A stretch of 64,000 nt of DNA from NCBI GenBank assembly GCA_021790115.1, contig JAJYIM010000003.1, positions 16,602 to 80,601 of the forward strand. Reading direction: 5' to 3'. Both the position numbers and the translations under genes were made by a program. This DNA is from Actinomycetes bacterium (GTDB taxonomy: Bacteria; Actinomycetota; Thermoleophilia; BMS3ABIN01). The notes beneath the pieces are model-generated. The model worked only from the letters and a program-made list of their open reading frames with translations. It did not search any database and had not been told where the DNA came from. Shown here one piece after another: positions 7,318 through 30,605 of the stretch (positions are counted from its first letter, which is position 1; the number at the start of each line of letters is the position of its first letter).

Positions 7318-7518
7318 AGGTCCGAAAGGACATAAACCGGAAAGGACTACGCCATGGAAAATCTTATCACGAGTACCAGCAAGACTACAGCAACCCTCGA
7401 CCTGACCCTGCTGATCCGCGGCAGGATCAGACAGTCCATCGAGAACATCCTTTATGAGGAACTGGCCATCGCCTTAGGAGCCGATAAATCCGAACGCACA
7501 GATGAGCGAAAGGGCTGC

Positions 7519-9896: not shown

Positions 9897-9917
9897 CGGG
9901 CAGCGGCTTCCTCTCCG

Positions 9918-11552: not shown

Positions 11553-11577
11553 TTTCCTTCCTTGTCTCGAGGAGCTG

Positions 11578-16441: not shown

Positions 16442-16444
16442 GGC

Positions 16445-16753
16445 TCAGCCTTTCATTCTGCTTGCTTTGTCGATGTCCAGGGATTTGAGATGGTGATAAA
16501 GCTGCAGCACCAGCGCCAGCCCCAGTGAAACCTCCACTGCCGCCATGGCCAAGATGAAGATGAACATCAACTGCCCGTCGGGCTGCCGCCAGCGGGAGCC
16601 GCCGACAACAAACGCGAGGCCGGACGCGTTTACCATGATCTCAATCGACAACAGCATGAAAATGATGTTGCGGCGCGCCAGCACGCCGGCGAACCCGAGG
16701 ACAAACAGCGCCGCCGCCAGCAGCAGCCCGTAATTGGCGGGGATGGACGCCAT
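16445..16753 (-). CDS. nuoK: NADH-quinone oxidoreductase subunit K
   Basis: 102 aa, 3 TM, ...FMLLSIEIMVNASGLAFVV... Confidence 0.85.
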   Translation of the reverse strand: MASIPANYGLLLAAALFVLGFAGVLARRNIIFMLLSIEIMVNASGLAFVVGGSRWRQPDGQLMFIFILAMAAVEVSLGLALVLQLYHHLKSLDIDKASRMKG

Positions 16754-17301
16754 TAGACTTTCTCTCCATTTGGCCGACCGGAGCCTGGACTGTCGGAGCC
16801 TTCACTGCCGGAGCGGCGGCCCAGGTGGTAGGCTCCCACCAGCCCGGCCAGCAGCAGCAGCGAGGCCAGCTCAACCCCAAGCAGGTATGGCCCAAACAGG
16901 GCGATGCCCACTTCATTTGCGCCCACCACGGCCGTGCCGGCTTTGGGCTCCTGCTCGCCCCCGGAGATAAGGATGTAGATGAGCTCTCCCGCCAGGATCA
17001 GCGCCAGCGCGGCCGGACCCAGCCAGGTCCTCGGCTTGAGCCAGATGCGCTCCACCCGCGCCGCCTGGGGGCCAAGGTTAAGGATCATGATTACGAAAAT
17101 AAACAGCACCATAATCGCCCCGGCGTAGATGATCGCCTCAAGCGCCGCCGCAAAAGGCGCCCCCAGGATGAAAAAAATCAGCGATACGGCCAGCAGCGAG
17201 ACAATCAGGTAAAGGAGCGCGTGAACGGCGTTATAGCGGGTGATCACGGCAAGTGTGGCCACAACCGCAACCGCCGCCGAGATGTAAAAAGTGACGTCCA
17301 A
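16753..17301 (-). CDS. nuoJ: NADH-quinone oxidoreductase subunit J
   Basis: 182 aa membrane subunit between nuoI and nuoK. C-terminal Ser/Gly-rich tail. Confidence 0.8.
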   Translation of the reverse strand: MDVTFYISAAVAVVATLAVITRYNAVHALLYLIVSLLAVSLIFFILGAPFAAALEAIIYAGAIMVLFIFVIMILNLGPQAARVERIWLKPRTWLGPAALALILAGELIYILISGGEQEPKAGTAVVGANEVGIALFGPYLLGVELASLLLLAGLVGAYHLGRRSGSEGSDSPGSGRPNGEKV

Positions 17302-17319
17302 GCTATTCTCCGTAGGTCA

Positions 17320-17835
17320 TTACGGCGCAAGCTCCAGTGGGTCGGTGGGGCGTTCTTCCTCTTGAGCCCCGCCTTTATCCTTGCCGCCAATAGCCACGCC
17401 GGCCACCCGGTAAAAATTATAATCATGATACTTGCCAGGACCGCTGATCAACAGGTCTTCCTTTTCATAAACAAGGTTCTGGCGGTCGTATTCACACATC
17501 TCGAAATCAGGAGTCAGCTGGATGGCGTCAGTGGGGCAGGCTTCTTCACAGTAGCCGCAGAAAATGCAGCGCGAAAAGTTAATCCGGAAAAATGAGGGAT
17601 AACGGCGGCCCTGCCTGTCTTCCGTGGCCTGCAGGGAGATGCAGTCAACCGGGCAGGCGGCGGCGCAAAGATAACAGGCAACGCAGCGCTCCCGGCCGTC
17701 AGGATCGCGGGAAAGGATGATCCGGCCCCGCCATCGCGGCGGCAAGTAATCCTTGTGCTCGGGGTACTGGATCGTGGCACGCTTCCTGAACGCATGCAAA
17801 AAGACCTGCCACATGCTTTTAAACAGGCTAATCAT
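17320..17835 (-). CDS. nuoI: NADH-quinone oxidoreductase subunit I (2x[4Fe-4S] ferredoxin-like)
   Basis: Two CxxCxxCxxxCP motifs: [16 protein letters not shown] and [16 protein letters not shown]. Confidence 0.9.
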
Positions 17836-17843
17836 ATGATCTC

Positions 17844-18797
17844 CTACCGGGTGGCAAGCACGATTCCTCCCGTAACTACCAGATTCAGGAGCGCCAGCGG
17901 CAGCATCACCTTCCAGCCAAACGACATCAGCTGATCGTAGCGAGGCCGGGGAAAGGTGGCCCTGAGCAGAATGAAGAAGCAGATAAAAAACAGCGTTTTA
18001 ATCGCCAGCCATGCCAGCGGCGGCAGCAGCGGGCCCTGCCAGCCGCCAAAGAATAGCACGCAGATGAGGACGGAGATCAGCGTGATGCCCAGGTATTCTT
18101 CCACGAAGAAGAGGGCGAATTTCATCCCTGAATATTCGGCGTGAAAACCGGCAACCAGCTCACCCTCCGCTTCCGGAAGATCAAATGGCAGCCGGCGGGT
18201 CTCGGCAATACCCGCGGTGAGGAAAATAAGCATGCCGGAAAACTGGGGCACCACGTACCAGAGTCCCTTCTGGGCTTCGACAATGTTTTTCAGGTCAAAG
18301 GAGCCGGCCAGCATGACGACACCCATCAGCGACAGGCTCATAAATACTTCATAGCTGAGCATCTGGGCCGCGGCCCGCATGCTGCCCAGCAGCGAGTACT
18401 TGCTGTCCGAGGCCCAGCCCGCCAGAACGACCCCGTACACGGCCAGCGAAGACATCGCCAGGAAAAAAAGCAGGCCGATGTTAAGATCGGCCACTGCAAT
18501 TCCGGGCGCGTAGGTGATTATGGCAAATGTAAGCAGCACGGGAACAATGATTGCAGCCGGCGCCACGACAAACACAGCCGCGTCGGCAAAGGGAGGCACC
18601 CAGTCTTCCTTGGAAAGAATCTTGATCATGTCCGCCAGCACCTGCAGCAGGCCAAACGGCCCGACCCGGTTGGGACCGTACCGGTCCTGCCACAGCGCCA
18701 GCAGCCGCCGTTCCAGCCAGATAAGGCCGGCGCTGACAGAAAGCGCCGCGATGATGACGCCGAAGATCGTGATAAGTGAAATGACTGCGCTATACAT
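17844..18797 (-). CDS. nuoH: NADH-quinone oxidoreductase subunit H
   Basis: 317 aa, 8 TM, conserved ...[26 protein letters not shown]... Confidence 0.9.
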
Positions 18798-18871
18798 TGA
18801 TGCGCTTCCTGTTTGTCAATGCGGTCATGCCTGAACTTTCATCACATGTGACCGCCGGGTGCAGGCCCCCT

Positions 18872-21583
18872 CTACGCACCGCCCGCTCCCTCGGAGACTG
18901 CATTTATCCCGGCAAAAATCCCTGGGCTAACGATGCCCTCCAGTCCCGGCAGGCAAACTGGCACTCCGGCGACGCCAGCCGGCAGGGCGTCAATCAATCT
19001 GACAGGCAGACGAATGAAGCCTGCCGGCGTCTGTAGCTCAACAAGGCCACCGGCTGTGATGTTTAGTCCAGCGGCGTCAGAGGGGCTTAGGGCTAGGTAT
19101 GGGGACGGGGCCAGCTGTCTGATCCCGGGGGAAAAGACACTGAGCTCTTCGGAGCCAAAGATATGATAAAGCGGCACCAGCAGCCACCGGCCGGCGCTAC
19201 GGGAAAACGGGCCGGGCGCCTGCTGAAAATAATGCGGCCGCCGGCGCGCCGGCTCGATCAGGCGCTTGCCCGGATCTCCTCCCCGCAGGGGGCCGCCAAC
19301 TTCTTCCTGGAACTTGTTAAGCGCCTGCGCCGAGTTCCAGCCCGGCTCCCAGTAGCGGGGAATCAGCGGCGGCGGCGGCTGCCCCTGAAAGCCTTCCATG
19401 GAGAATGCTAGCGGGCTGTCACGATCGGCAGGAGACTGGGGCTCGTTGACGCTCAAGTTTGCCGACATCGCCGTGCGGCCGCTGTAGCTTCGCGCCTGGC
19501 GGGCGACTTTCTGGCCGCCGATGCGGAAATCGGCGCCAGGGGCCGCCAGGCCGGCGCCTGTGAAAACAGGCAACTCTTTTTCAAGGTCGCCGATTACATC
19601 GTCAATTGTCTGCCAGGCCGCCTCGGCTGCCGGCGTTATGCCGGCCAACCAACGCCAGCTCTCCATCACATCTCCCAAAGGAGGCATCACCTTGAAATAA
19701 CGCTGCGCCCGGCCTTCGCTGTTTACAAGCGTGCCGTCGCTTTCAGCAAAAGTAGCAGCAGGCAGCACGACTGAGGCCCTCTCTGTGGTTGAGTTATCAA
19801 GGCTGTCAATCGCGATTACGTGGCGGGCTTTAAACAGCCTGTTCACAATGGATGGTTCAGCGCGGCGGTAAAGGTCGTTCTCCAGGATGACAACGGTGTC
19901 GGCCTCGCCACTTTCAACTGCCTCCACGGCGAGGCTGAGGGGGCCGCCCTCCATGAGGGCGGCCCCCATGCTGTTGGCCTCCGGCAACGTCAGGCAAAGG
20001 CCGGCCGGCCGGCCACTCTCAGCCAAAGCCCAGGCCACGTTGGCAGCAGCCTCCAGCACCGCTTCGCTTCCCAGTCCGGCGCCCGAGATAACCAGGGGGC
20101 GCTCCGCTTCCTCAAGGGCGTTTGCAATAGCGGCTGCCAGGGTGCGCTCCTCCGCACCCTGGCCGGCGGCTGCCGGAGCGTCCTGGTCAAGCAGGGAGGC
20201 AACCATAAATCCCAGGCGGGCAATTTCAGCGGGGGCTGCCCGCCAGGCGGCCGTCGCAATAGCGTCCAGCCTGGCGGCCGCCGGCGTAGCGATAAAAAGC
20301 GGTCCCCGCCGCTGCTGAACTGCCCCGCGGCTGGCCGTATCATCCCATGGTGGGATGGCGCCGGCCGCGTCTCTGAGCGGCCTTTGCCGCACAGACTGGC
20401 GCAGGGCCAGGTCCAGCATCGGCGCAAAATTCGTTACGTCCTCGCCCAGAACAAGCACGGCGTCGGACTTGTGTATGTCACCTGGGGGAACGGAGCGCGC
20501 TGGCCCTGTTTGCAGAATCCGGACCGCCAGGCGGGCCAGCCGCTGCCCGCCGTCGCTTACGCCGGACACAAACCTGTCCGGCCCCGCCAGACGGCGCAGG
20601 GCATAATTTGCTTCCAGGGAAGCCCGCGGCGATCCAATCCCAACGATGCCCCTGCATCCGGCAATGATTCCCCGCAGCCGCCTGAGCGCCGCCGCGGCCG
20701 AAACAGGCGCCGGGGCGCCCCCGGCCTTGCGCAGCAAGGGACGGCGCAGGCGCCTGGCGCTGTTTACAAATTCATAACCGAAACGGCCCCGGTCGCAAAG
20801 GAAATAGCCGTTCACCTGGCCATTGAAGCGGTTGCTAATCCGCCTCAGCGAGCCGTAGCGGCTGCCGGGAATGATGTTGCATCCAAGCGCGCAATGCATG
20901 CAGACCGATGGCGCCGTCTGCATGTCCCATTTGCGCGTGTAATGGCGCTTCAGGCTTTTGTCGGTAAAAACGCCCGTGGGGCAGACCTCCGCCAGGTTGC
21001 CGCTAAACTCGCTTTCCAGGACTCCACTCTCATGGCGGCCAAAATATACCTGGCTCCTTAGTGAAAAAGCGCCCAGATCGCTGCCGCCGGCGTAGTCGCG
21101 GTAAAAGCGGACACAGCGGTAGCACTGAATGCAGCGGTTCATCTCGTGGTTGACAAATGGACCCAGATCCTGATTGTGGAACGTCCTTTTCTTGCCACGG
21201 TAACGGCGGCGGCTGTGGCCGGTCATGACGGTCATGTCCTGCAGGTGGCATTCGCCGCCCTCGTCACAGACTGGGCAGTCATGGGGATGGTTCAGCATCA
21301 TTAACTCAATGACGCCGGCGCGGAAGGCGCGTGCCTCCGGGTCGTCAATTGAGATGCGGACGCCCTCACCGGCAGGAGTCATGCAGGCCATTACGATTCT
21401 GCCCCTCGTGTCATGCTCGTCCCGGAACTGCTTGACGGCGCACTGGCGGCAGGCGCCCACCGAATGCAGCGCCGGATGCCAGCAAAAATATGGCAGGTCA
21501 AAACCGAGCGAGAGGCACGCGGCGAGCAGGTTCTGGCCAGCCTCGATTTCATGTTGCTTGTTGTCAACAAAAATGCGCACCAT
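18872..21583 (-). CDS. nuoG: NADH-quinone oxidoreductase subunit G (75 kDa Fe-S subunit)
   Basis: N-terminal 2Fe-2S/4Fe-4S ferredoxin-like cysteine motifs (CWHPALHSVGACRQCAV; HPHDCPVCDEGGECHLQ), molybdopterin-oxidoreductase-like C-terminal domain. 903 aa. Confidence 0.9.
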   Translation of the reverse strand: MVRIFVDNKQHEIEAGQNLLAACLSLGFDLPYFCWHPALHSVGACRQCAVKQFRDEHDTRGRIVMACMTPAGEGVRISIDDPEARAFRAGVIELMMLNHPHDCPVCDEGGECHLQDMTVMTGHSRRRYRGKKRTFHNQDLGPFVNHEMNRCIQCYRCVRFYRDYAGGSDLGAFSLRSQVYFGRHESGVLESEFSGNLAEVCPTGVFTDKSLKRHYTRKWDMQTAPSVCMHCALGCNIIPGSRYGSLRRISNRFNGQVNGYFLCDRGRFGYEFVNSARRLRRPLLRKAGGAPAPVSAAAALRRLRGIIAGCRGIVGIGSPRASLEANYALRRLAGPDRFVSGVSDGGQRLARLAVRILQTGPARSVPPGDIHKSDAVLVLGEDVTNFAPMLDLALRQSVRQRPLRDAAGAIPPWDDTASRGAVQQRRGPLFIATPAAARLDAIATAAWRAAPAEIARLGFMVASLLDQDAPAAAGQGAEERTLAAAIANALEEAERPLVISGAGLGSEAVLEAAANVAWALAESGRPAGLCLTLPEANSMGAALMEGGPLSLAVEAVESGEADTVVILENDLYRRAEPSIVNRLFKARHVIAIDSLDNSTTERASVVLPAATFAESDGTLVNSEGRAQRYFKVMPPLGDVMESWRWLAGITPAAEAAWQTIDDVIGDLEKELPVFTGAGLAAPGADFRIGGQKVARQARSYSGRTAMSANLSVNEPQSPADRDSPLAFSMEGFQGQPPPPLIPRYWEPGWNSAQALNKFQEEVGGPLRGGDPGKRLIEPARRRPHYFQQAPGPFSRSAGRWLLVPLYHIFGSEELSVFSPGIRQLAPSPYLALSPSDAAGLNITAGGLVELQTPAGFIRLPVRLIDALPAGVAGVPVCLPGLEGIVSPGIFAGINAVSEGAGGA

Positions 21584-21590
21584 TATTTGA

Positions 21591-22877
21591 TCACGCGTGT
21601 TTCCACGGGCACCTTTTCTGATGGACGTGGCGCTCGAAATCTTCCCGGAAGAAACGCAGGGCGCTGGCTAGGGGCTCGGCCGCCCCAGGAGCGAGAGCGC
21701 AATAAGTGTGGCCGGGAGCAAGCATGCCCGCCAGCGAAGCCAGCATGTCAATGTCTTCCATCCGGCCCCTGCCGGCTTCGATGTCACCCAGCAGCTGAAC
21801 GATAAACTGCAGGCCTCCCCAGCAAGGAGTGCACCAGCCGCATGATTCCCTGGCAAAGAAACGCTCAAGGTTAAGAACCATGCCAACGGGACAGGAACGG
21901 TCGTCCAGGACGATAATGGTGCCTGTGCCCAGCCGGCTGCCGGCGGCTTCCACAGAACCAAAATCCATCTTCACGTCAAGGTGCGCCGGGGTAAGAAAAT
22001 CCGTCGAAGCGCCGCCGGGCAAAAGGCCGCGCAGGCTGTAACCTTCCTGCATCCCGCCCGCGTGCTCCTCCAGAACTTCTTTTAAGGTCGTTCCCATCGG
22101 CAGTTCCCAGGCGCCCGGGGAGCGGACGCGGCCGCTGGCGCCGTATATTTTCGTGCCGCCCTCGGCGCTGCGGCTCAGCCCCTTAAACCAGCCGGCGCCA
22201 TTGTTGACGATATGCGGAATATTACAGATGGTCTCAACGTTGTTTACGACAGTGGGCTTGCCCCAGAGTCCGGATGTTTGCGGGTAAGGCGGCTTGGAGC
22301 GGGGGTTGGCCCGTTTGCCTTCTATGGCGTTAAGCAGCCCCGTCTCCTCGCCGCAAATATAGCGGCCGCCGCTGATATGAAGATAAAGATCGAGGCTGAA
22401 GCCGGAACCGATGATATTGCGCCCCAGGAGGCCGCGGCTATAGGCTTCGGCGACCGCCTGTTTAAGCTGCCTGGCGGCTAGCCGGTATTCCCAGCGCAGG
22501 AATACAAAGGCAACTTCCGCCTGAACGGCGTAGGCGGCCAGAATCGCACCCTCAACCAGCTGGTGCGGGTCGCCTTCCAACAGCAACCTGTCTTTAAAAG
22601 CGCCGGGCTCCATCTCATCAGCGTTGACAACCAGGTATTTTGGATGGGGCGCATCCTCTCCCATCGGGACGAAGCTCCATTTCTGACCGGCGTCAAAGCC
22701 GGCGCCGCCCCTGCCTTTAAGGCCGGCGTCCTTGACGGCCCCGGTGACCTCCGCCGGCGCCATGCCCTTAAGCGCCTTGCGCACGGCCCGGTAGCCGCCG
22801 TTTTTCTCGTAGGCGGCGATATCCGGCGGCCGGCGCCCAGGACGGATGTTCATTGTCAGAGGCGTTTCCATTTCCAT
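21591..22877 (-). CDS. nuoF: NADH-quinone oxidoreductase subunit F (NADH-binding, FMN, 4Fe-4S)
   Basis: GRGGAGF (NADH/FMN site), C-terminal ESCGWCTPC Fe-S motif. 428 aa. Confidence 0.9.
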   Translation of the reverse strand: MEMETPLTMNIRPGRRPPDIAAYEKNGGYRAVRKALKGMAPAEVTGAVKDAGLKGRGGAGFDAGQKWSFVPMGEDAPHPKYLVVNADEMEPGAFKDRLLLEGDPHQLVEGAILAAYAVQAEVAFVFLRWEYRLAARQLKQAVAEAYSRGLLGRNIIGSGFSLDLYLHISGGRYICGEETGLLNAIEGKRANPRSKPPYPQTSGLWGKPTVVNNVETICNIPHIVNNGAGWFKGLSRSAEGGTKIYGASGRVRSPGAWELPMGTTLKEVLEEHAGGMQEGYSLRGLLPGGASTDFLTPAHLDVKMDFGSVEAAGSRLGTGTIIVLDDRSCPVGMVLNLERFFARESCGWCTPCWGGLQFIVQLLGDIEAGRGRMEDIDMLASLAGMLAPGHTYCALAPGAAEPLASALRFFREDFERHVHQKRCPWKHA

Positions 22878-22948
22878 TGGTTCAAAGTTTCAGGTTTAGG
22901 TTTTGTCCAGCATCCATAATCCAGCATCCAGCATCCGTTTACTCGTAC
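22878..22948 (+). repeat. heptamer-tandem intergenic element copy C, in the 61-nt nuoE-nuoF intercistronic gap
   Basis: GGTTCAAAGTTTCAGGTTTAGGTTTTGTCCAGC ATCCATA ATCCAGC ATCCAGC ATCCGTTTACTCG. Confidence 0.7.
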
Positions 22949-23403
22949 TTATCAAGGATCTCGCCGATTCTGTCCGGGTCGACGTTGGTGTGCAAATCTT
23001 CGTCGATCATCATTGCCGGCGCCCGGTCGCAGGCGCCCAGGCAGACAACCGGCAAAAGAGTGAAGCGGCCGTCTGCGGTTGTCCGGCCCGGGTCGACTCC
23101 GAGGCAGCCGGCAATGTGGCTCATCAACTTCTTCGAATCCATCAGCCAGCAGCTGACGCTGTCACAGGCGAGGATCACGTGCCTGCCCACAGGCCGTCTG
23201 AATATCAAGTTGTAGAAGCTGGCGGTTCCGTCCAGCTCGGCAATGGGCATCTCCAGCAGTTTGCTCAGCTCAGCGATGGCCTCGTCAGAAACCCATCCCT
23301 GGTGGCGCTGCACTATCCTGAGGGCGTCGATGGCGGCTGCCTGCCTGACCGGGTAAGGAGCCATTGCCGCTTCTATTTCCATTTTTACTTCTCTTTTTAA
23401 CAT
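22939..23403 (-). CDS. nuoE: NADH-quinone oxidoreductase subunit E (2Fe-2S)
   Basis: Thioredoxin-like 2Fe-2S motif ACDSVSC...VVCLGACDRAP. 154 aa. Confidence 0.9.
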   Translation of the reverse strand: MLKREVKMEIEAAMAPYPVRQAAAIDALRIVQRHQGWVSDEAIAELSKLLEMPIAELDGTASFYNLIFRRPVGRHVILACDSVSCWLMDSKKLMSHIAGCLGVDPGRTTADGRFTLLPVVCLGACDRAPAMMIDEDLHTNVDPDRIGEILDKYE

Positions 23404-23430
23404 TGTTAGTTTATCTTTGCTGCTTTTCGA

Positions 23431-25188
23431 TTAGCGGTCCACATCCGCCAGGACGTAATCGATGCTTCCCAGGATCGCCAGCAGGTCAGGGATCATGGCG
23501 CCGCCGCTGATAAAGGGGATCATCTGCAAGTGGGGGAAGGAGGGGGTGCGGATGCGCAGCCGGTAGGGTCCGCTGCCGCCATCGCTGATCAGATAGTAGC
23601 TGTTTATCCCTTTCGCCGCCTCAACGGCGGCGGTTGCTTCCCCGGGCGGAATAACAGGCCCCCAGCCGGCCTGAAGAAAATGGGTGATCAGGGTCTCGAT
23701 GTCAGCCAAGGTTCGCTGCTTTGGCGGCGGCGCCGCCAAGGGATGGCCAGCCTTGTATGGCCCTGGGGGCATGTTTTCCACGCACTGGCTGATGATCCTC
23801 AGGCTCTGGCTGATTTCCGCTACCCGCACTGCCGCCCGGTCATAGCAGTCGCCGGCGTCAGCGGTGGGAATGTCAAACTCGAACTGGTCATAACCGCTGT
23901 AGGGGCGCTGCTTGCGCAAATCCCATTCCAGCCCGCAGGCGCGCAGTCCGGGGCCGGTGACGCCCCACTCGACTGCTTCCTTAAGCGAGTAGGCGCCAAT
24001 GCCCTTGGTGCGGGCCTTGAAAATGCGGTTCTGCATTACGATGCGGTCATATTCCTGCAGCCGCCGGGGCAGATAAGCCAGAAAGTCACGCACTCCCGCG
24101 TCCCAGCCCCGGGGCAGGTCCTGGGCGACACCGCCGATGCGGAACCAGTTGGGGTGCATGCGGTCCCCGCAGATGGCGGCAATGATGTCAAAGAGGCGTT
24201 CGCGGTCGGTAAACATGTAAAACACCGGCGACATCGTCCCCACGTCCTGGGCAAAGGTGCCGTACCAGACCAGATGGCTGGCGATGCGGAACAGCTCCGA
24301 CAGCATCACCCTGATCACCTGCGCCCGCTCCGGGACCTCGATGCCGGCCAACTGCTCCACCGCCATCACGTACGGCAGGTTGTTCAGAACGCCGCCCAGA
24401 TAGTCAATGCGGTCAGTGTAAGGAATGTAAGTATGCCAAGTCTGCCGCTCGCCCATTTTTTCCGCGCCGCGGTGGTGATAGCCAATATCAGGAACAGCGT
24501 CAACGATCACTTCACCGTCCAGCTGCAGAACGATGCGCAACAGGCCATGCGTGCCAGGGTGCTGCGGGCCGACATTGAGGAAAAGAAAATCTGTATCACC
24601 GTGGCGCCGGCTGATGCCCCAGTCCTCAGGACGAAACTTGAGCGCCTGCTCCTCTTTCTCTTCCCTGGCTTCAGGCAGCCGGTACGGCTCCATTTCGGTG
24701 GCCCGGGCGGGATGCTCCTTCCGCAGCGGGTGGCCTTCCCAGGTGGGCGGCATCAGGATGCGGCGCAGGTGCGGATGCCCGTTAAAGACAATGCCAAACA
24801 TGTCCCAGGCTTCCCGCTCATACCAGTTGGCTGCGGGCCAGATATTGACAATGCTTTGGGCGGCGGGGCTTTCCCCCTTCAACGCAGTTTTGACGCAAAT
24901 ATCCTCAGCGCGGTCAAGGGAGAAAAGATGGTAGGCGAGCGTAAAATCACCCTCCGGCTGGTCACGGCGGTGGCTGCGCAGGCGCTCATCGATGGCGGTC
25001 AGGTTGTAAAGCATTGGGAAGGGGCTGCCGGCCTCGCTTTTTAGATACCGTAACAGCTGTGGCAATTTGTCAGCGGGCGCCCAGATAACGGGGGGGCCGC
25101 CCTGCACCTGCTGGCGGGTGAAACCCGGGCCGCCGAATTTCTGCTCGGCTGCCGCAAGTGCATCGGCGCTGCTTTCCTGGACTTTCAC
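23431..25188 (-). CDS. nuoCD: NADH-quinone oxidoreductase subunit C/D fusion
   Basis: 585 aa: N-terminal ~170 aa NuoC-like (30 kDa subunit) fused in frame to the NuoD 49-kDa domain ([16 protein letters not shown]... to C-terminal ...YVLADVDR). Confidence 0.85.
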
Positions 25189-25193
25189 CTTGC

Positions 25194-25829
25194 CTAGACC
25201 TCGCCGGGGGGCCTGAGCCTGTCGGTTTTTTGCCTCTCGGCACGCATGCGGTCGCGGCGGGCGGGAAATGGGGGGCGCACAGTATCCTGCCGGGCGGCAT
25301 GCCAGCTAAGCGGCCGCCGCTCCCGTCCGACAGCGCTGCTGAGCATCAGCAGCCCTTCCATGAAAGCATCGGGGCGGGGGGGACAACCGGGCACGTAAAC
25401 GTCGACGGGCAGAAACTTGTCAACTCCCTGGACAACGCTGTAAATGTCGTACATGCCGCCGGAGTTGGCGCACGAGCCCATTGAGATCACCCAGCGCGGC
25501 TCCATCATCTGCTCGTAGAGAAGCTTGATGATGGGCGCCATTTTCGCAAAGACGGTGCCGGCAATTACCATCAGGTCAGCCTCCCTGGGCGTTCCCCTGA
25601 TCACCTCGGCGCCAAAGCGGGCGATATCATACTTGCTGGTAATGCAGGTGGCCATCTCCACGTAGCAGCATGAAAGGCCGAAGTTAAAAGGCCAGATTGA
25701 GTTTTTGCGGCCCCAGGAGATCAGATCCTGAAGCCGGGAGAGCAAAAGCACGCGCCCAACCGTCTCTGCCGGCGAATCTGTCCAGGCCGCCATTTTGGCG
25801 CCTTCTCCGTCTCCGGCCGAAGCGATCAT
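25194..25829 (-). CDS. nuoB: NADH-quinone oxidoreductase subunit B (4Fe-4S N2)
   Basis: CCYVEMA...[10 protein letters not shown]...GCPPRP cysteine ligands. Has a ~50-aa Arg-rich C-terminal tail beyond the conserved core. Confidence 0.85.
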
Positions 25830-26266
25830 GACCTGCCTTTTTCCGGTGGTCCGGCGTTACCGCCGCCCGGCCGGAGCCCAGCACCCGGCTTTGGCCGCCG
25901 CGGTCCCCAATCAAGGGCGCCCTGCCGCCACAGATACGCCAACGCCGCGCCGAGGATGCCGATAAAGACGACAATTTCAATATATCCCTGCCAGCCGGCG
26001 GCGCGGATGGCGACAGCCCAGGAAATAATAAACATGGCCTCCAGATCAAAGATGACAAAGAAAATCGCGTTCTGATAAAACTTGACATCAAAGCGCACCC
26101 GCGCAGTACCCGTTGATATAATCCCAGATTCGTATGGTTTGCCGGTCTCTGTTTCCCGGTGCCGTTGCCCGAGGATGTAGGAAAGCGCCAGCAGCCCCCC
26201 GGTGATGAACACGGTCGCGCCAAAATAAACAGCCAGCGGCCAAAGCGGAATCCGGGCTACGTCCAT
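25826..26266 (-). CDS. nuoA: NADH-quinone oxidoreductase subunit A
   Basis: 3-TM NuoA core (…[21 protein letters not shown]…) plus a Gly/Pro-rich C-terminal tail. Start overlaps the gnd stop by 10 nt. Confidence 0.85.
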
Positions 26267-27663
26267 TGCGTGTGAAAAACCCCCTCCGCATCCACGCGCT
26301 CGTACTTATGGGCGCCGAAATAATCGCGCTGCGCCTGGATCAGATTGGCAGGCAGCCGGGCGCTGCGGTAGCCGTCAAAATACGCCAGGCAGGCCATGAA
26401 GGCCGGCGACGGAATATGCAGGCGGGCGGCGGCGCTGGCAACATCGCTCAGGGCGTCAAGCCGTTTCCGCGCTTCGCCACCGATCTCCCTGTCCAGGAGA
26501 ATATTGGGCAGGTCCGGCCGCTGCCGGTAAGCCGCGCGGATAGTTTCCAGCAGGCTGGCCCTGATGATGCAGCCGCCGCGCCAGATGCGGGCGACCGCCT
26601 CCAGGTCGAGGCCGTAACCATATGAATCCGAAGCCCTTTTCAAATGGGCCATTCCCTGGGCGTAGGCGATAATGACGGCAGCATAAAAAGCATCCCTGAG
26701 CCGGGACAGAAACTGGTCCCGGCCGCCCTCCAGGCCATGGCCGGCGCCGCCCAGCGCGCCCGCGGCGGCCAGCCGCTCGCTTTTAAAAGCAGACAGGTTG
26801 CGCATGGCAACGGCGGCGTCCATGGCCGGCGCCGGCACGCCCAGGTTCATGGCGTCCTGGGATGTCCACATTCCCGTTCCCAACTGTTTTGCTTCGTCGC
26901 GAATCATGTTGACAAGAGGGTTGCCAGTGTCATCATCAACCCTGGCGAGGATGTCAACAGTTATCTCAAGCAGGAAAGAGGCAGCCTCGCCCTGGTTCCA
27001 GTTGCCAAAAGCAGCCTGCATCTGAGCAGCGCTCAGACCCAGGCCCTGCTTCATCAGGTCGTAGGATTCGGCAATTAACTGCATCACGGCGTATTCGATG
27101 CCGTTATGGACCATCTTGACGTAGTGGCCGGCCGACCGCGGCCCTAGGTAGGTGACGCAAGGATCGCCGCCCACCCGGGCGGCGGCCGCCTCGAGGACGG
27201 ACTGCACCTGCCCGTAGGCTTTCTTGCTGCCGCCCGGCATGATGCTGGGGCCATGCCGGGCGCCGCTCTCGCCGCCGGAGACGCCGGCGCCCATGAAGTG
27301 GATGCCACTGCCGGCCAGCATCTGCTCGCGGCGGTCGGTATCCTTGAAAAAAGAGTTGCCGCAGTCGATAATCAGGTCGCCAGGCTTTAGCAGCGGCAGC
27401 AGATCGCCAATGACGGCGTCCACCGGCGGCCCTGCCGGAACCAGCATCATCACCGCCCGGGGCTGGCGCAGCGCCGAAACAAGCTCCGCCGGGCTTTGAG
27501 CCGCCAGGACCGGCCGGCCGGCGGCCTCTTCCCGCATGGCTTGCAATTGGGACTGGTCCTTGTCGTAACCTGCGACGCTGAAGCCATGGTCGGCAATGTT
27601 GAGAACCAGGTTGCGTCCCATCACTCCCAGGCCGATCATGCCGATCTCGTATTGCCCGCTCAT
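26257..27663 (-). CDS. gnd: 6-phosphogluconate dehydrogenase (decarboxylating)
   Basis: N-terminal Rossmann IGMIGLGVMGRNLVLNI, 468 aa, full-length similarity to the Gnd family. The residues aligned to the NADP 2'-phosphate-binding N-R-S/T motif are D-K-D. Confidence 0.9.
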   Translation of the reverse strand: MSGQYEIGMIGLGVMGRNLVLNIADHGFSVAGYDKDQSQLQAMREEAAGRPVLAAQSPAELVSALRQPRAVMMLVPAGPPVDAVIGDLLPLLKPGDLIIDCGNSFFKDTDRREQMLAGSGIHFMGAGVSGGESGARHGPSIMPGGSKKAYGQVQSVLEAAAARVGGDPCVTYLGPRSAGHYVKMVHNGIEYAVMQLIAESYDLMKQGLGLSAAQMQAAFGNWNQGEAASFLLEITVDILARVDDDTGNPLVNMIRDEAKQLGTGMWTSQDAMNLGVPAPAMDAAVAMRNLSAFKSERLAAAGALGGAGHGLEGGRDQFLSRLRDAFYAAVIIAYAQGMAHLKRASDSYGYGLDLEAVARIWRGGCIIRASLLETIRAAYRQRPDLPNILLDREIGGEARKRLDALSDVASAAARLHIPSPAFMACLAYFDGYRSARLPANLIQAQRDYFGAHKYERVDAEGVFHTQWT

Positions 27664-27730
27664 GGTGACCTCCTAAGATTGCATTCGTCCCGGCTGCGCA
27701 ACGCAACAAAGGACGCAATTAATCCTTACT

Positions 27731-29473
27731 TCAAAAATCCAGCTTCACGTTTCGAACGATCTCTTCCACCCGCGCCAGCCCTTCTTTCGGGTCGCCGCCC
27801 AAATGCACCCGCATCACCTTTCTGCCATGGCGGCGCAGAGCCATGAAGTCGCCGAGCGCCTGCGCCTGCTTAAAGACGCTAAATCCGTAGGCCGCGCCGG
27901 GAATCAGGGCGTCCTCGGCGTCATCGCAGGTAAGCTGCAAAAACAGGCCGCCGGCCGGACCGCCTTTGTGAAACTGGCCCGTTGAGTGCAGGAACCTGGG
28001 GCCAAAACCCACAGTCACCGCCAGGTGCAGCCTGTCCCGGAGGGCGGCCTGCAGCCGGGCCAGAACGTGCGCAGTGGCCTTATCTTCAGCCAGATAAGCC
28101 ATCAAGGCCAGGTAGCCACCAGGCCGCCCTTCACTTAAAAAAGAACCGATAGCCTCGGCAACCGTGACAACCGGCGGCTTAAAGCTCTCGTAGTAGACGC
28201 CGAGCGGCGCCTCCACCAAAAGCGGGGTCTCCGGCGGCAGTTCTCCGGTTTTTGCCACCTGGTCCAGCAGGCGGTTGGTATTGTCCTTGCTTTCCTGAAC
28301 ATTGGGCTGATCAAACGGATTGACGCCCAAGACAATGCCGGCAACGGCGGTGGCTGCCTCCCAGCGGAAAAACTCCTGCCCCAGCTGATATGGCTCATCA
28401 ATCCTGATCGTCACAACCGGCTGGCCGGCGGCTTTTAGCTTGTCCACGGCCGCTTCCAGGGCGGGGTCACCGCCTGCCCAAAGATAAACAAACAGCCGGT
28501 CAGTGCCGTAAACACCGGGGGAGCCGACCGCCTCGCCGGCCACCGGCAGCAGGCCTCTGCCTTTTTTCCCAGTGCTTTCCGCCAGCAACTGCTCCAGCCA
28601 CATGCCCAAGGGAGCGATTGACTCTGCCGACAGAAACGTCACCTTATCCCGACCCTGAAGCGCCAGCTCGCCAAGAGCCGCCCCCAGCACCAGGCCGGGA
28701 TTTGCCTGGACCGGGACTTCCGCGGCGCAGGCGCGCTGCATGCCAAGCGCCTGCTTAAGCAACGCTTCCGTGTCCGCGCCCGCCAAGGCGGCTGGCACGA
28801 GGCCGAAGAACGACAGGGCCGAATAGCGCCCGCCAATGTCGGGAAAATTTAAGAAGACGTGGCGAAAATCCCTGCCGGCGGCCGATTGGGCCAGCGGGGA
28901 TCCAGGGTCGGTGATGGCGATAAAATTTTCTCCTGCCCGCCCGCCCTTTGCCTCTGAGACCCGCCGGAAAAAATATTCTGCAAAAGCCCGCGGCTCGGCC
29001 GTGGTGCCGGATTTGCTGGCAACGATAAAGATGGTCTCCGTCAGCGGGGCTTCCTTTTCTATCTTTAGAATAGTCGCCGAATCTGTCGTATCCAGCACCG
29101 TCAGCGGCAGCCCCTGGTTTTTCCCGGGAAGAATTTTGGCCATCACCAGCGGCGCCAGGCTGCTTCCTCCCATGCCCATGTGAACCACACGGCGAAAGCC
29201 GGCAGCCAGTACTTCCTGCCTCAGTTTTAAAAGCAAATCCTGGTTGGCCGCCATGGTTGCAGCGGCGTCAAGCCAGCCGAGGGAATCTCCAACCTGACTG
29301 TGCTCTTTGGCGTTCCCGCTCCACAGCGAGGCATCCTTGCGCCAAAGCCGCCCGCCAATATCTGCGTCTTTAAAGCCGTCCAGCCGGACCTCAACCGCCT
29401 GGCGGTACGAGCCCAGATCAAGCGTCTGCCGGCCGGCCACTTTCACAACCGCATCATTTTCTTTCTTTACCAT
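27731..29473 (-). CDS. pgi: glucose-6-phosphate isomerase
   Basis: 580 aa. C-terminal PGI signature ...VGFGPRFLHSTGQFHKGGP... and sugar-isomerase (SIS) domains. Confidence 0.75.
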   Translation of the reverse strand: MVKKENDAVVKVAGRQTLDLGSYRQAVEVRLDGFKDADIGGRLWRKDASLWSGNAKEHSQVGDSLGWLDAAATMAANQDLLLKLRQEVLAAGFRRVVHMGMGGSSLAPLVMAKILPGKNQGLPLTVLDTTDSATILKIEKEAPLTETIFIVASKSGTTAEPRAFAEYFFRRVSEAKGGRAGENFIAITDPGSPLAQSAAGRDFRHVFLNFPDIGGRYSALSFFGLVPAALAGADTEALLKQALGMQRACAAEVPVQANPGLVLGAALGELALQGRDKVTFLSAESIAPLGMWLEQLLAESTGKKGRGLLPVAGEAVGSPGVYGTDRLFVYLWAGGDPALEAAVDKLKAAGQPVVTIRIDEPYQLGQEFFRWEAATAVAGIVLGVNPFDQPNVQESKDNTNRLLDQVAKTGELPPETPLLVEAPLGVYYESFKPPVVTVAEAIGSFLSEGRPGGYLALMAYLAEDKATAHVLARLQAALRDRLHLAVTVGFGPRFLHSTGQFHKGGPAGGLFLQLTCDDAEDALIPGAAYGFSVFKQAQALGDFMALRRHGRKVMRVHLGGDPKEGLARVEEIVRNVKLDF

Positions 29474-29825
29474 GCCGGCGCTCCGGTGATGTTCGCGATG
29501 CGCCCGTCATGACTTTTTTGATAATATGTAGTGTTGTGTCATAATGTTTTTAATCAGTTTACGTACTTTGCCAAATTTAGGCAAGCGCACGGTGTGCTCA
29601 AAAAGAACACGTTGAAAAGACTTTCCCCGGCAGGCAGAAACAAAAACCTGCAGGCCGATGAGCGTAAGTTGATATCAATCCTATATTTAATATATCGCCG
29701 CCGCTCCCCGCCGTTTGCTTCCAGGTCGCCGATCCCTTCTTGCTGTGATATCTTAGAATTCACCGTAGAGTCTGTCCCGACCTCCGGAGGCTGCCCTGGT
29801 TACCACTGCTAATGCTCTTACCTGC
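29474..29825. promoter_or_regulatory. 352-bp AT-rich divergent intergenic region between pgi (-) and the CDP-alcohol phosphatidyltransferase gene (+)
   Basis: Local GC ~45% versus ~64% for the window. Several short hairpins (TTGCCAAATTTAGGCAA; GGCAGGCAG...CCTGCAGGCC). No convincing ORF. Confidence 0.4.
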
Positions 29826-30401: not shown

Positions 30402-30443
30402 TTTTCAACCCGGCGAGCCAGGCTGTCAGCCCCGGGAATTTGT

Positions 30444-30471
30444 TTTCAACTGCAAGGGGTTGCAATATAAT
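30444..30471 (+). promoter_or_regulatory. candidate sigma70-like promoter (TTTCAA-16-TATAAT) for the nucleotidyltransferase/PMM-like gene
   Basis: TTTCAA at 30444-30449 and TATAAT at 30466-30471, ~135 nt upstream of the ATG at 30606. Confidence 0.35.
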
Positions 30472-30605
30472 TAATCTCCTGAAGCCGGGCTTAAGATGGA
30501 ACCCATTGCGATAGGCTGCTTGGAGCAAGGCCGAGCGCGAAAAAGCTTTGCCGTCCTCTGTGGCAGAAATACCTATCGAGACAGGCTCACCAAGGAAAGG
30601 ATTAA

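What the first reader, a model, noticed from the sequence alone, without database searches (positions are those of the whole stretch)
27556..27564. Gnd carries D-K-D where NADP-specific 6PGDHs have the 2'-phosphate-binding N-R-S/T motif
The segment GFSVAGYDKDQSQ aligns to E. coli Gnd GYTVSIFNRSREK. Loss of the Arg and gain of acidic residues in this loop is the classical determinant of NAD+ preference in Rossmann-fold dehydrogenases. An NAD+-linked 6PGDH translationally coupled to nuoA would deliver NADH straight to complex I.
Basis: inference. Interest (0 to 1): 0.55.

Follow-up and report, generated by a model that had tools for sequence, protein, structure and literature searches.

The report
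NAD-type 6PGDH wired to complex I
The 6-phosphogluconate dehydrogenase and the glucose-6-phosphate dehydrogenase here both carry NAD-type rather than NADP-type cofactor pockets and bracket a complete complex I operon followed by cytochrome bd oxidase, so this uncultured bacterium probably burns sugar phosphate through the pentose phosphate pathway to make NADH for respiration; no enzyme assay exists yet.

Summary
Codons 27564-27556 (minus strand) encode D34-K35-D36 of a 468-aa long-chain 6PGDH. These residues align without gaps to the N-R-S/T triplet that binds the 2'-phosphate of NADP in E. coli, Geobacillus, yeast, human and sheep enzymes, and the AlphaFold model places them in the beta2-alpha2 loop.

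The motif is not a one-off. All 119 readable loops among the 120 closest homologues have D-x-[D/E/N/A]. In a wider sample the Asp co-varies with a GxGxxG fingerprint (NADP types have GxAxxG) and with Pro in place of coenzyme-site Lys75. These are the most discriminating positions in the whole protein, and they mark an old subfamily that is everywhere annotated "NADP-dependent".

Published mutagenesis and the NAD-preferring D-R-D enzyme of Gluconacetobacter support NAD+ preference.

The operon pgi-gnd-nuoA..N-zwf-cydAB, including the gnd/nuoA overlap, recurs in related metagenome-assembled genomes.

No kinetics exist, and nothing supports direct channelling of NADH.

Verdict: partly supported, a new variant of a known kind, of moderate interest.

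The parts
27556..27564 (-). Codons for D34-K35-D36, the beta2-alpha2 loop of Gnd. This is the position of the N-R-S/T 2'-phosphate motif of NADP-specific 6PGDHs.
   Evidence: translation; ungapped alignments to PDB 6PGDHs; AlphaFold2 secondary structure.
27616..27633 (-). Dinucleotide fingerprint G11-L-G-V-M-G16 (GxGxxG). NADP-type long-chain enzymes have GxAxxG.
   Evidence: Co-variation with Asp34 in 90 sequences: 37 G/D against 49 A/N/R.
27436..27438 (-). Pro76, at the position of coenzyme-site Lys75 of the sheep enzyme (VKAG becomes VPAG).
   Evidence: It is the second most discriminating column between D-type and N-type enzymes. Lys75/76 is listed as a coenzyme-site residue in PMC8900737.
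26257..27663 (-). gnd, a long-chain decarboxylating 6-phosphogluconate dehydrogenase of 468 aa. An AGGAGG Shine-Dalgarno sequence lies 6 nt before the ATG.
26257..26266 (-). 10-nt overlap of the gnd stop (TAG) with the nuoA start (ATG) in ATGGACGTAG, consistent with translational coupling.
   Evidence: The same overlap occurs in L001 and L082, and a 16-nt overlap in L089.
27731..29473 (-). pgi (glucose-6-phosphate isomerase, 580 aa), the first gene of the operon, 67 nt upstream of gnd.
   Evidence: it matches the PGI half of NF007080. Synteny.
11578..26266 (-). nuoA-B-CD(fused)-E-F-G-H-I-J-K-L-M-N, a complete NADH:quinone oxidoreductase (complex I) operon. NuoF keeps the ICGEETGL NADH-site motif.
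9918..11552 (-). zwf (glucose-6-phosphate dehydrogenase, 544 aa), 25 nt after nuoN.
   Evidence: (TIGR00871 608 bits against a cut-off of 401).
11331..11336 (-). Zwf D73-A74. Ala74 replaces the 2'-phosphate Arg (E. coli R50, L. mesenteroides R46), and Asp73 precedes it.
   Evidence: Role of R50 from PMC4807051.
11427..11429 (-). Zwf Ala42, at the position of E. coli K18 (beta1-alpha1 loop, the second NADP cation).
   Evidence: PMC4807051.
7519..9896 (-). cydA-cydB, cytochrome bd quinol oxidase, 21 nt after zwf. These are the last genes of the operon.
   Evidence: Conserved after zwf in L084-L088.

Best explanation
Gnd here is a long-chain (dimer-type) 6-phosphogluconate dehydrogenase whose adenosine pocket is built for NAD+ rather than NADP+. 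Asp34 directly after beta2 would hydrogen-bond the 2'/3'-hydroxyls of the adenine ribose and repel a 2'-phosphate. Asp36 adds further negative charge. The GxGxxG turn and the replacement of Lys75 by Pro complete an NAD-type pocket, and Lys35 probably only stacks on the adenine. The enzyme belongs to a large, old and biochemically uncharacterised subfamily (D-x-D/E/N loop, GxGxxG, Pro76) that annotation pipelines label 'NADP-dependent'. In this lineage of uncultured, probably actinobacterial, organisms a complete nuo operon sits between gnd and zwf of an ancestral PPP operon. The Zwf of this lineage has additionally lost both NADP-binding cations. The resulting transcription unit pgi-gnd-nuoA..N-zwf-cydAB would co-express an NADH-yielding oxidative pentose phosphate branch, with Pgi able to recycle fructose-6-P, together with the proton-pumping NADH dehydrogenase and a high-affinity terminal oxidase. 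Sugar-phosphate oxidation would then feed the respiratory chain through the free NADH pool. What is shown: the motif, its position, its co-variation, the Zwf substitutions and the conserved synteny and overlap. What is inferred: the cofactor preference, co-transcription and the physiological flow of electrons.
For: Position of the motif. Subfamily signature: 119 of 120 nearest homologues have a D-x-[D/E/N/A] loop, with DKD in 82. In 90 long-chain enzymes from many phyla the pattern is G13/D34 in 37 sequences against A13/N34/R35 in 49, with only 3 intermediates. Across all 468 columns the best discriminators are positions 34, 76 (P against K), 13 (G against A), 32, 35 and 36, all in the coenzyme pocket. 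Position 35 is Arg in 96% of N-types but only 50% Lys and otherwise variable in D-types, which indicates relaxed constraint on the phosphate-binding role. A neighbour-joining tree built only on residues 51-468 recovers the D-types as one large clade plus a small one. Experimental precedents come from the literature. Asn32/Arg33/Thr34 bind the 2'-phosphate, and the Asp-Arg-Asp enzyme of G. diazotrophicus prefers NAD+ and was proposed to feed the respiratory chain (PMC8900737). Thermotoga N32D shifts the NAD/NADP specificity ratio from 0.0015 to 1, and N32E/R33I/T34I shifts it to 96 (PMC5090862). The Moorella saturation screen selected A30D/R31I/T32I (ratio 61) and A30E/R31I/T32D (ratio 18) (PMC5009329). 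Zwf: FAIVIVDAVQ aligns to L. mesenteroides FAIVGTARQA, and GGAGDLA aligns to E. coli GAKGDLA. E. coli K18A/R50A no longer discriminates between NAD and NADP (PMC4807051). Only the seven closest Zwf homologues lost the Arg, and those with long enough contigs are nuo-linked. Synteny: pgi-gnd-nuoA with overlapping codons occurs in L001, L082 and L089. nuoN-zwf(-cydAB) occurs in L084-L088, L090 and L091. The ancestral-like tal/pgi-gnd-zwf-pgl arrangement occurs in L083. Gene spacing ranges from -10 to +74 nt throughout the operon. NuoF has the canonical NADH site motif.
Against: No kinetic or structural data exist for any long-chain D-x-D enzyme that I could find. A basic residue (K35) remains in the loop, and Thermotoga N32D on its own gave only equal use of both cofactors, so a dual-specificity enzyme is possible. 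Most D-type gnd genes are not next to nuo, and in Bacteroidota they are paired with a Zwf that keeps the Arg. The motif therefore does not by itself imply a dedicated link to complex I. Cofactor preference in G6PDH is known not to be fully predictable from these two loops (PMC4807051). Co-transcription is inferred from spacing only, since the promoter and terminator scans were uninformative. Only 64 kb of the genome is visible, so a second NADP-type gnd or zwf, or a transhydrogenase, cannot be excluded. In this lineage the Lys equivalent to sheep K260, a 6PG phosphate ligand by my recollection, is Leu, so substrate handling may also differ.
Confidence: 0.65

Rival explanations
1. Gnd, and perhaps Zwf, is a dual-specificity enzyme that still makes physiologically relevant NADPH. 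Under this reading the placement of the oxPPP genes with nuo and cydAB reflects co-regulation of an oxygen or oxidative-stress response (NADPH for antioxidant systems, the bd oxidase for O2 scavenging), not a supply line of NADH to complex I.
For: Lys35 is retained in the loop. Thermotoga N32D alone gives a 1:1 specificity ratio (PMC5090862). [quoted passage not shown] Cytochrome bd is the oxidase encoded in the operon.
Against: Three independent pocket changes in Gnd (D34/D36, G13, P76) and the loss of both cations plus the gain of Asp73 in Zwf all point the same way. Position 35 is free to vary to Q, V, L or T in the subfamily, which argues against a phosphate-binding role. The acid-x-acid combination was selected for NAD+ use in Moorella (PMC5009329). 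The gene physically sandwiched with the dehydrogenases is the NADH-specific complex I, whose NuoF site is canonical.
Confidence: 0.22
2. The D-K-D loop is a neutral phylogenetic signature, and the enzyme is NADP-dependent as the NCBIfam and PGAP names state. The adjacency to nuoA would then be a historical accident of an insertion.
For: The protein scores far above the cut-off of models named 'NADP-dependent phosphogluconate dehydrogenase'. Database names of homologues say the same.
Against: Those names are propagated from HMMs that span both loop types and were never tested on D-type members. Asp at this position raised the Km for NADP 460-fold in a long-chain homologue (PMC5090862). The differences between the subfamilies concentrate in the coenzyme pocket rather than being spread over the protein. 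The insertion, including the overlapping stop and start codons, is conserved in lineages that have diverged to 70-74% (Gnd) and 66-82% (Zwf) identity.
Confidence: 0.05
3. The module is the oxidative half of a dissimilatory ribulose-monophosphate cycle. Formaldehyde would be fixed by hexulose-6-phosphate synthase and oxidised to CO2 through Pgi, Zwf and Gnd, with the NADH going to complex I. Storage-sugar catabolism would not be the main purpose.
For: An HxlA (hexulose-6-phosphate synthase)/RraA-like fusion lies at 60191-61477 (TIGR03128 227 bits against a cut-off of 200). The operon contains exactly Pgi, Zwf and Gnd, the enzymes of that cycle. NAD-linked 6PGDH (gndA) is known from the methylotroph Methylobacillus flagellatus (cited in PMC5574463).
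Against: The hps gene is 30 kb away and in another transcription unit. No 6-phospho-3-hexuloisomerase was seen in the window. Hps/RraA fusions are widespread in non-methylotrophs. Relatives carry a GH15 glucoamylase/trehalase next to the operon, and a nucleotidyltransferase/phosphohexomutase fusion lies beside it here, which points to sugar metabolism.
Confidence: 0.08

Closest known systems
Gluconacetobacter diazotrophicus 6PGDH (Gd6PGD, PDB 6VPB)
   Same: [quoted passage not shown] Its authors proposed that its NADH is passed to the respiratory chain because the PPP is the main catabolic route (PMC8900737). It also has a GxGxxG-type fingerprint, as described for that cluster.
   Different: It is a short-chain, tetrameric, membrane-associated enzyme of about 330 aa. 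It shares only about 33% identity and TM 0.55 to the model. The window protein is a 468-aa long-chain enzyme with the duplicated helical domain and the C-terminal tail. The window protein is below the cut-off of the short-chain model TIGR00872 (232 against 297 bits). The Gd gene is not known to lie in a nuo operon.
Canonical long-chain NADP-specific 6PGDH (E. coli Gnd 3FWN/2ZYA, Geobacillus 2W8Z/2W90, sheep 1PGO, human 2JKV)
   Same: The fold and length are the same (TM 0.92-0.94, 46-52% identity). The catalytic Ser/Lys/His/Asn/Glu residues and the tail Arg/His are the same. The HMM family is the same.
   Different: These enzymes have N-R-S/T, GxAxxG and Lys75. The window enzyme has D-K-D, GxGxxG and Pro76. 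The Lys260 equivalent is Leu in the window lineage.
Engineered NAD-preferring 6PGDHs (Thermotoga N32E/R33I/T34I; Moorella A30D/R31I/T32I and A30E/R31I/T32D)
   Same: The same three loop positions are changed. An acidic residue at the first position, and in one selected mutant at the third position as well, reverses preference by 10^3 to 10^4-fold (PMC5090862, PMC5009329).
   Different: These are laboratory mutants with a hydrophobic middle residue. The natural subfamily here mostly keeps Lys or Arg, or uses Gln, Val, Leu or Thr, and also changes the fingerprint and position 76.
Bacillus subtilis GntZ, and the NAD-linked 6PGDHs used from Methylobacillus flagellatus, Gluconobacter and Bradyrhizobium
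   Same: They are natural 6PGDH isozymes that prefer NAD+ and serve catabolic rather than anabolic roles (PMC4518329, PMC5574463).
   Different: GntZ belongs to a gluconate operon. The others are, to my knowledge, short-chain enzymes. I did not align any of them here, and none is reported inside a respiratory-chain operon.
G6PDHs lacking the NADP cations (E. coli K18A/R50A mutant; Fuentealba 'group III' with Asp before the Arg/His)
   Same: The window Zwf has Ala at both cation positions and Asp at the preceding position. The double mutant cannot discriminate between NAD+ and NADP+, and Asp before position 50 is noted in a natural group (PMC4807051).
   Different: Most natural relatives keep V-D-R. 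Only the nuo-linked lineage has V/L/M-D-A/V. None of these has been characterised.

Membership tests
Long-chain decarboxylating 6-phosphogluconate dehydrogenase (TIGR00873 / NF006765) | Whole-protein HMM score above the curated cut-off | tested here: met
   NF006765 scores 613 bits (cut-off 413) and TIGR00873 scores 583.8 bits (cut-off 426.7).
Long-chain decarboxylating 6-phosphogluconate dehydrogenase (TIGR00873 / NF006765) | Rossmann NAD_binding_2 domain plus duplicated all-helical 6PGD domain and C-terminal tail, about 470 aa | tested here: met
   Pfam PF03446 and PF00393. AlphaFold2 model with pLDDT 90. Foldseek TM 0.93 to 2W90 over 468 columns.
Long-chain decarboxylating 6-phosphogluconate dehydrogenase (TIGR00873 / NF006765) | Catalytic and substrate residues (sheep S128, K183, H186, N187, E190, Y191, K260, R287, R446, H452) | tested here: inconclusive
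   GVSGGE at 127-132, KMVHNGIEY at 183-191, R288 and RDYFGAH at 446-452 are present. The K260 equivalent is Leu261 in the window and its five closest relatives. Residue roles are from my recollection of the sheep-enzyme literature.
NADP-specific 6PGDH (EC 1.1.1.44 sensu stricto) | Asn-Arg-Ser/Thr 2'-phosphate-binding triplet in the beta2-alpha2 loop | tested here: not met
   D34-K35-D36 occupies the aligned positions. The feature is defined in PMC8900737 and PMC5090862.
NADP-specific 6PGDH (EC 1.1.1.44 sensu stricto) | GxAxxG fingerprint and coenzyme-site Lys75 | tested here: not met
   GLGVMG and Pro76.
NAD+-preferring 6PGDH (EC 1.1.1.343) | Acidic residue at the first loop position after beta2, with a GxGxxG fingerprint | tested here: met
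   Asp34 directly follows strand 30-33. The fingerprint is GLGVMG. The criterion is as stated in PMC5090862 and PMC8900737.
NAD+-preferring 6PGDH (EC 1.1.1.343) | Measured kinetic preference for NAD+ over NADP+ | not testable with these tools
   This requires recombinant enzyme assays. No characterised member of the long-chain D-x-D subfamily was found in the literature searches.
Short-chain tetrameric 6PGDH (TIGR00872, gnd_rel; the group holding the characterised NAD-preferring enzymes) | About 300-340 aa with a single helical hemi-domain, and an HMM score above the cut-off | tested here: not met
   TIGR00872 scores 232 bits, below the cut-off of 297. The protein is 468 aa. TM normalised to the query is only 0.55 to 6VPB, 10GW and 8IHE.
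Glucose-6-phosphate dehydrogenase (TIGR00871), NADP-preferring type | Arg in the beta2-alpha2 loop (E. coli R50 / L. mesenteroides R46), with or without Lys/Thr/Ser at E. coli position 18 | tested here: not met
   The family HMM is met (608 bits against 401), but Ala74 and Ala42 occupy these positions and Asp73 precedes. Roles are from PMC4807051.
Proton-pumping NADH:quinone oxidoreductase (complex I, nuo operon with fused NuoCD) | Full subunit set in one operon, a NuoCD fusion, and a NuoF NADH/FMN site | tested here: met
   NuoA, NuoB, NuoCD (NF008728 992 bits against 840) and NuoN HMM hits. ORFs of the expected sizes for E-M. NuoF has the ICGEETGL motif. NuoK was inferred only from a 311-nt gap.

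The most novel reading that the evidence does not exclude
In a lineage of uncultured (probably actinobacterial) organisms the oxidative pentose phosphate branch may have been converted wholesale into a respiratory fuel line. Both dehydrogenases would be NAD-specific, and their genes are spliced around a complete complex I operon and followed by cytochrome bd. One mRNA would then encode a self-contained 'sugar phosphate (or, with the nearby Hps, formaldehyde) to proton-motive force' module running as a cyclic oxPPP. Gnd, translated in register with NuoA, might even associate physically with complex I. A corollary is that a very large subfamily of long-chain 6PGDHs in Bacteroidota, Acidobacteriota, Chloroflexota, Planctomycetota and other phyla is mis-annotated as NADP-dependent. 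If so, the NADPH budgets assumed in metabolic models of these phyla would be wrong.
Probability: 0.25. Interest if true: 0.7.

Novelty: new variant of a known kind. Interest (0 to 1): 0.5.

Why it matters
The oxidative PPP is treated almost universally as the cell's NADPH generator, and annotation pipelines name every long-chain Gnd 'NADP-dependent'. If the D-x-D/GxGxxG/Pro76 subfamily prefers NAD+, then one or both oxPPP steps yield NADH in many environmental phyla. That would change redox balances in genome-scale models and the interpretation of 13C-flux data. It would also offer natural long-chain NAD-dependent 6PGDHs, and possibly G6PDHs, for biocatalysis and enzymatic fuel cells, where such enzymes have had to be engineered. 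The operon found here, with dehydrogenases bracketing complex I and followed by cytochrome bd, is unusually explicit genomic evidence that a bacterium uses the oxPPP as an energy-yielding catabolic route. It also gives a directly testable system: two enzymes to assay and one transcript to map.

Tried and rejected
1. I looked for a Rex (NADH-sensing repressor) operator, TTGTGAAN4TTCACAA with up to 3 mismatches, in the window. There were 0 matches against 1.6 expected by chance, so there is no support for Rex control.

2. The Rfam scan of the whole window found only one tRNA, at 6082-6155. There is no riboswitch or leader upstream of pgi.

3. The sigma-70 promoter and intrinsic-terminator scans of 7000-12000 and 25500-30700 gave nothing interpretable. 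Operon boundaries therefore rest on gene spacing and synteny.

4. Alignment of the regions upstream of pgi in the window, L001, L082 and L089 showed only weak conservation. A palindrome at 29566-29585 and GTAAAC/GGAAAC repeats in the relatives were not pursued.

5. The exact look-up of the window's own Gnd found nothing on record, and the cluster look-up gave no organism names. Taxonomy therefore rests on one 'Actinobacteria bacterium' label for a syntenic Zwf and on actinobacterial-style neighbours.

It gave a similarity-biased sample, so I do not quote a frequency for the D-type subfamily.

7. Maturana et al. 2021 (Wellcome Open Res 6:48), the main paper on the evolution of cofactor preference in 6PGDHs, is not held. 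Its content is known to me only through citations.

8. Literature searches for gnd or zwf inside nuo operons, and for characterised long-chain NAD-dependent 6PGDHs with this motif, found nothing.

9. I considered whether the protein might be another beta-hydroxyacid dehydrogenase. This is rejected by its HMM scores and by its full-length structural match to 6PGDH.
Full report
**1. The observation**

The ORF at 26257-27663 on the minus strand encodes a 468-aa protein beginning MSGQYEIGMIGLGVMGRNLVLNIADHGFSVAGYDKDQSQ. The reverse complement of 27556-27564 is GACAAGGAC, which encodes D34-K35-D36.

The protein is a decarboxylating 6-phosphogluconate dehydrogenase.
- NCBIfam NF006765 scores 613 bits (cut-off 413) and TIGR00873 scores 584 bits (cut-off 427).
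- The best solved relative is Geobacillus 6PGDH 2W8Z/2W90 at E 7e-157.

HMMER alignments are ungapped across the N-terminal 100 residues. SVAGYDKDQSQ lies on SVAVYNRLREK (Geobacillus), TVCAYNRTQSK (yeast Gnd1) and VVCAFNRTVSK (human), and the aligned E. coli 3FWN stretch has equal length. DKD therefore occupies exactly the Asn32-Arg33-Thr/Ser34 positions.

An AlphaFold2 model (pLDDT 90, pTM 0.89) has strand beta2 at residues 30-33 and helix alpha2 at 37-47. DKD is therefore the beta2-alpha2 loop, and Asp34 is the first residue after beta2. Foldseek matches long-chain 6PGDH structures at TM 0.92-0.94.

**2. The motif marks a subfamily**

Among the 120 closest homologues (61-74% identity; named ones include Anaerolineae, Caldilineae, Ardenticatenaceae, Gemmataceae and Bacteroidetes MAGs), every readable loop starts with Asp. 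The counts are DKD 82, DRD 10, DQD 7, DKE 6 and DVD 6, with a few others.

In that set plus a few extra sequences (90 in all) the loop co-varies almost perfectly with the dinucleotide fingerprint.
- 37 sequences have Gly13 with Asp34.
- 49 sequences have Ala13 with Asn34 and Arg35.
- 3 sequences are intermediates.

D-types come from Bacteroidota (Pedobacter, Sphingobacterium, Chryseobacterium, Hymenobacter, Adhaeribacter), Acidobacteriota, Chloroflexota, Armatimonadota and Nitrospirota. N-types come from Bacilli, streptococci, cyanobacteria, Verrucomicrobiota, Actinomycetes and Proteobacteria.

I ranked all 468 alignment columns by how well they separate the two groups. The top positions are:
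- 34, which defines the groups;
- 76, which is Pro in 95% of D-types and Lys in 71% of N-types, and is the coenzyme-site Lys75 of the sheep enzyme;
- 13, which is Gly against Ala;
- 32, 35 and 36.

Arg35 is 96% conserved in N-types. In D-types position 35 is Lys in half and otherwise Arg, Gln, Val, Leu, Thr and others, as expected if it no longer has to hold a phosphate. A neighbour-joining tree computed on residues 51-468 only, which excludes fingerprint and loop, still groups the D-types into one large clade plus a small second one. The feature is therefore old and inherited.

**3. What the literature says about these positions**

- In sheep 6PGDH complexes, Asn32, Arg33 and Thr34 bind the 2'-phosphate and define NADP specificity. 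Asp in place of the Asn hinders placement of the phosphate (PMC8900737).
- In long-chain Thermotoga 6PGDH, N32D alone raises the Km for NADP+ 460-fold and moves the NAD/NADP specificity ratio from 0.0015 to 1. N32E/R33I/T34I reaches a ratio of 96 (PMC5090862, Table 1).
- A saturation-mutagenesis screen in Moorella 6PGDH selected A30D/R31I/T32I (ratio 61) and A30E/R31I/T32D (ratio 18), the latter an acid-x-acid loop like DKD (PMC5009329, Table 2).
- The natural short-chain enzyme of Gluconacetobacter diazotrophicus has Asp-Arg-Asp, prefers NAD+, and was proposed to supply NADH to the respiratory chain (PMC8900737, section 4.1).
- The same review describes the long-chain cluster as having the Asn-Arg-X motif of NADP-specific enzymes, and GxGxxG as typical of the mainly tetrameric NAD cluster.

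I found no paper that describes or assays a long-chain D-x-D enzyme. The key evolutionary paper by Maturana et al. 2021 was not available to me.

**4. The check on Zwf**

Zwf (9918-11552, minus strand; TIGR00871 608 bits) aligns to Leuconostoc G6PDH with FAIVIVDAVQIREDE on FAIVGTARQALNDDE, and with FGGAGDLA on FGGTGDLA (E. coli: FGAKGDLA).
- Ala74 replaces the 2'-phosphate Arg (L. mesenteroides R46, E. coli R50).
- Ala42 replaces E. coli K18.
- Asp73 sits just before position 74.

Among the 120 nearest Zwf homologues most have V-D-R. Only the seven closest (66% identity or more) have lost the Arg, reading IVDA, ILDA, IMDV or SVDA. In Bacteroidota the Zwf next to a D-type Gnd keeps G-R. The double NAD-type signature is therefore specific to the window's lineage.

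**5. Genomic context**

On the minus strand the genes run pgi (27731-29473), gnd, nuoA (25826-26266), nuoB, fused nuoCD, nuoE-N (down to 11578), zwf, cydA (8544-9896) and cydB (7519-8547). Gaps range from -10 to +74 nt, apart from the 311-nt space where the small nuoK lies.

gnd has an AGGAGG 6 nt before its ATG. The nuoA ATG lies inside the end of gnd (caATGGACGTAG), giving a 10-nt overlap.

The arrangement recurs in related assemblies.
- pgi-gnd-nuoA-B-CD-E-F-G... with a 10-nt overlap occurs in GCA_021787475.1 (L001, Gnd 74% identical) and GCA_014874175.1 (L082, 70%). A 16-nt overlap occurs in an ENA contig (L089, 70%).
- nuoL-M-N-zwf-cydAB occurs in L084 and in a lineage labelled 'Actinobacteria bacterium' (L086-L088, Zwf 72%), where a GH15 glucoamylase/trehalase follows. 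nuoN-zwf without cyd occurs in L090 and L091.
- A 66%-identical Gnd (L083) sits in a conventional tkt-rpiB-tal/pgi-HAD-gnd-zwf-pgl operon, and D-type gnd genes elsewhere are usually followed directly by zwf.

The simplest history is that a nuo operon was inserted between gnd and zwf.

NuoF (21591-22877) has the canonical GGRYICGEETGL NADH-site motif. By established knowledge of complex I, that site uses NADH and not NADPH.

The flanking genes are metK, priA, def, fmt, pgsA, a nucleotidyltransferase/phosphohexomutase fusion, an FHA protein next to a MerR regulator, murT/gatD, proS, ispG, rseP, uppS, frr and rpsB. They are housekeeping genes with an actinobacterial flavour.

**6. Most likely mechanism**

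Shown:
- a long-chain 6PGDH whose adenosine pocket differs from NADP-type enzymes at precisely the residues that contact the 2'-phosphate and adenine;
- a Zwf lacking both NADP cations;
- a conserved, tightly spaced gene string that places them around complex I and ahead of cytochrome bd.

Inferred:
- Both dehydrogenases reduce NAD+.
- The string is one transcript.
- The overlap couples NuoA translation to Gnd translation.
- Glucose-6-P, from storage sugars or recycled from fructose-6-P by Pgi, is oxidised to ribulose-5-P plus CO2, yielding 2 NADH. Complex I re-oxidises the NADH while pumping protons, and the bd oxidase reduces O2.

NADH would travel through the free pool. Nothing indicates channelling. 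I put about 0.65 on this account as a whole, and about 0.75 on 'Gnd prefers NAD+' alone.

**7. Rivals**

- Dual specificity with a stress-response rationale for the operon (0.22). It is favoured by the retained Lys35 and by the 1:1 result for N32D alone. It is disfavoured by the convergence of three pocket changes in Gnd and three in Zwf, and by the variability of position 35.
- A neutral signature, with the enzyme NADP-dependent as annotated (0.05).
- A dissimilatory RuMP cycle using the Hps/RraA fusion at 60191-61477 (0.08). This is compatible with the main model but weakly supported.

**8. Comparison with what is known, and novelty**

The enzyme works like the NAD-preferring 6PGDHs (EC 1.1.1.343), but it is not a member of the short-chain group that contains the characterised ones. 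It is a member of the long-chain family and fails the features that define that family's NADP-specific majority.

NAD-linked oxPPP feeding respiration is a known idea, from acetic acid bacteria and from methylotrophs. Two things appear new. One is a widespread natural long-chain D-x-D/GxGxxG/Pro76 subfamily. The other is an operon in which both oxPPP dehydrogenases bracket nuo and precede cydAB. I rate this a new variant of a known kind, with interest about 0.5. It is a clear, testable case with consequences for annotation and for redox modelling, but it is not a new mechanism and it lacks biochemical proof.

Noticed in passing
window 26881-26883 (Gnd Leu261): In the window and its five closest, nuo-linked relatives the conserved Q-K-G-T-G motif reads Q-L-G-T-G. 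The Lys lost is the equivalent of sheep 6PGDH Lys260, which by my recollection is a ligand of the 6-phosphate of the substrate. About 110 of the other 114 homologues keep the Lys. This may mean altered substrate affinity or specificity in this lineage.
   Followed up: partly
window 60191-61477 (+): This ORF is a bifunctional hexulose-6-phosphate synthase (HxlA)/RraA-like fusion (NF005442 588 bits against a cut-off of 593; TIGR03128 227 against 200). Together with Pgi, Zwf and Gnd it would supply most of a dissimilatory RuMP cycle. No 6-phospho-3-hexuloisomerase was seen in the window.
   Followed up: partly
window 9918-11552 (Zwf N-terminus, about 11460-11552): Zwf in the nuo-linked lineage is 529-544 aa against about 505-512 aa in other homologues. 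It carries a basic N-terminal extension of about 30 residues (MQTVKTQARAQKRKGSAAVALTGLSSYQPPSEP) ahead of the Rossmann fold.
   Followed up: no
window 30606-33119 (+) and 29826-30401 (+): An 837-aa fusion of a sugar-1-phosphate nucleotidyltransferase with a phosphohexomutase (PGM/PMM) lies next to pgsA, divergent from the operon. The same neighbours are conserved in L001 and L082. The fusion could link hexose-1-phosphate pools to glucose-6-P.
   Followed up: no
window 29474-29825; L001 3291-3562; L082 7775-8254: The 350-bp region upstream of pgi is AT-rich and holds an imperfect palindrome CTTTGCCAAATTTAGGCAAG (29566-29585). The relatives carry tandem GTAAAC/GGAAAC-type repeats in the equivalent region. 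These are possible regulator sites. No Rex operator was found.
   Followed up: partly
loci L004, L005, L008, L013, L019, L021, L025, L026, L034, L044 (Bacteroidota): Here a D-type Gnd is directly followed by a Zwf that keeps the canonical Gly/Ala-Arg loop. The two oxPPP steps may therefore use different cofactors in these organisms. All are annotated 'NADP-dependent'.
   Followed up: partly
proteins P0142-P0254 (Zwf homologues from Acidobacteriota, Nitrospirota, Thermoguttaceae and others): A very large Zwf clade has V-D-R, with Asp immediately before the phosphate-binding Arg, together with GG[AG]GDL. Its cofactor preference appears to be unstudied.
   Followed up: no
L089 789-5155: In one relative a Kiwa defence pair (KwaA/KwaB) and a type I restriction-modification system (HsdM/HsdS) lie immediately upstream of pgi. 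The left boundary of the operon is therefore a variable region.
   Followed up: no
L086 14109-15905 and the equivalent positions in L087 and L088: A GH15 glucoamylase/trehalase (TREH_N plus Glyco_hydro_15) lies convergent to cydB in the 'Actinobacteria bacterium' lineage. This hints that storage glucans or trehalose are the carbon source for the module.
   Followed up: no
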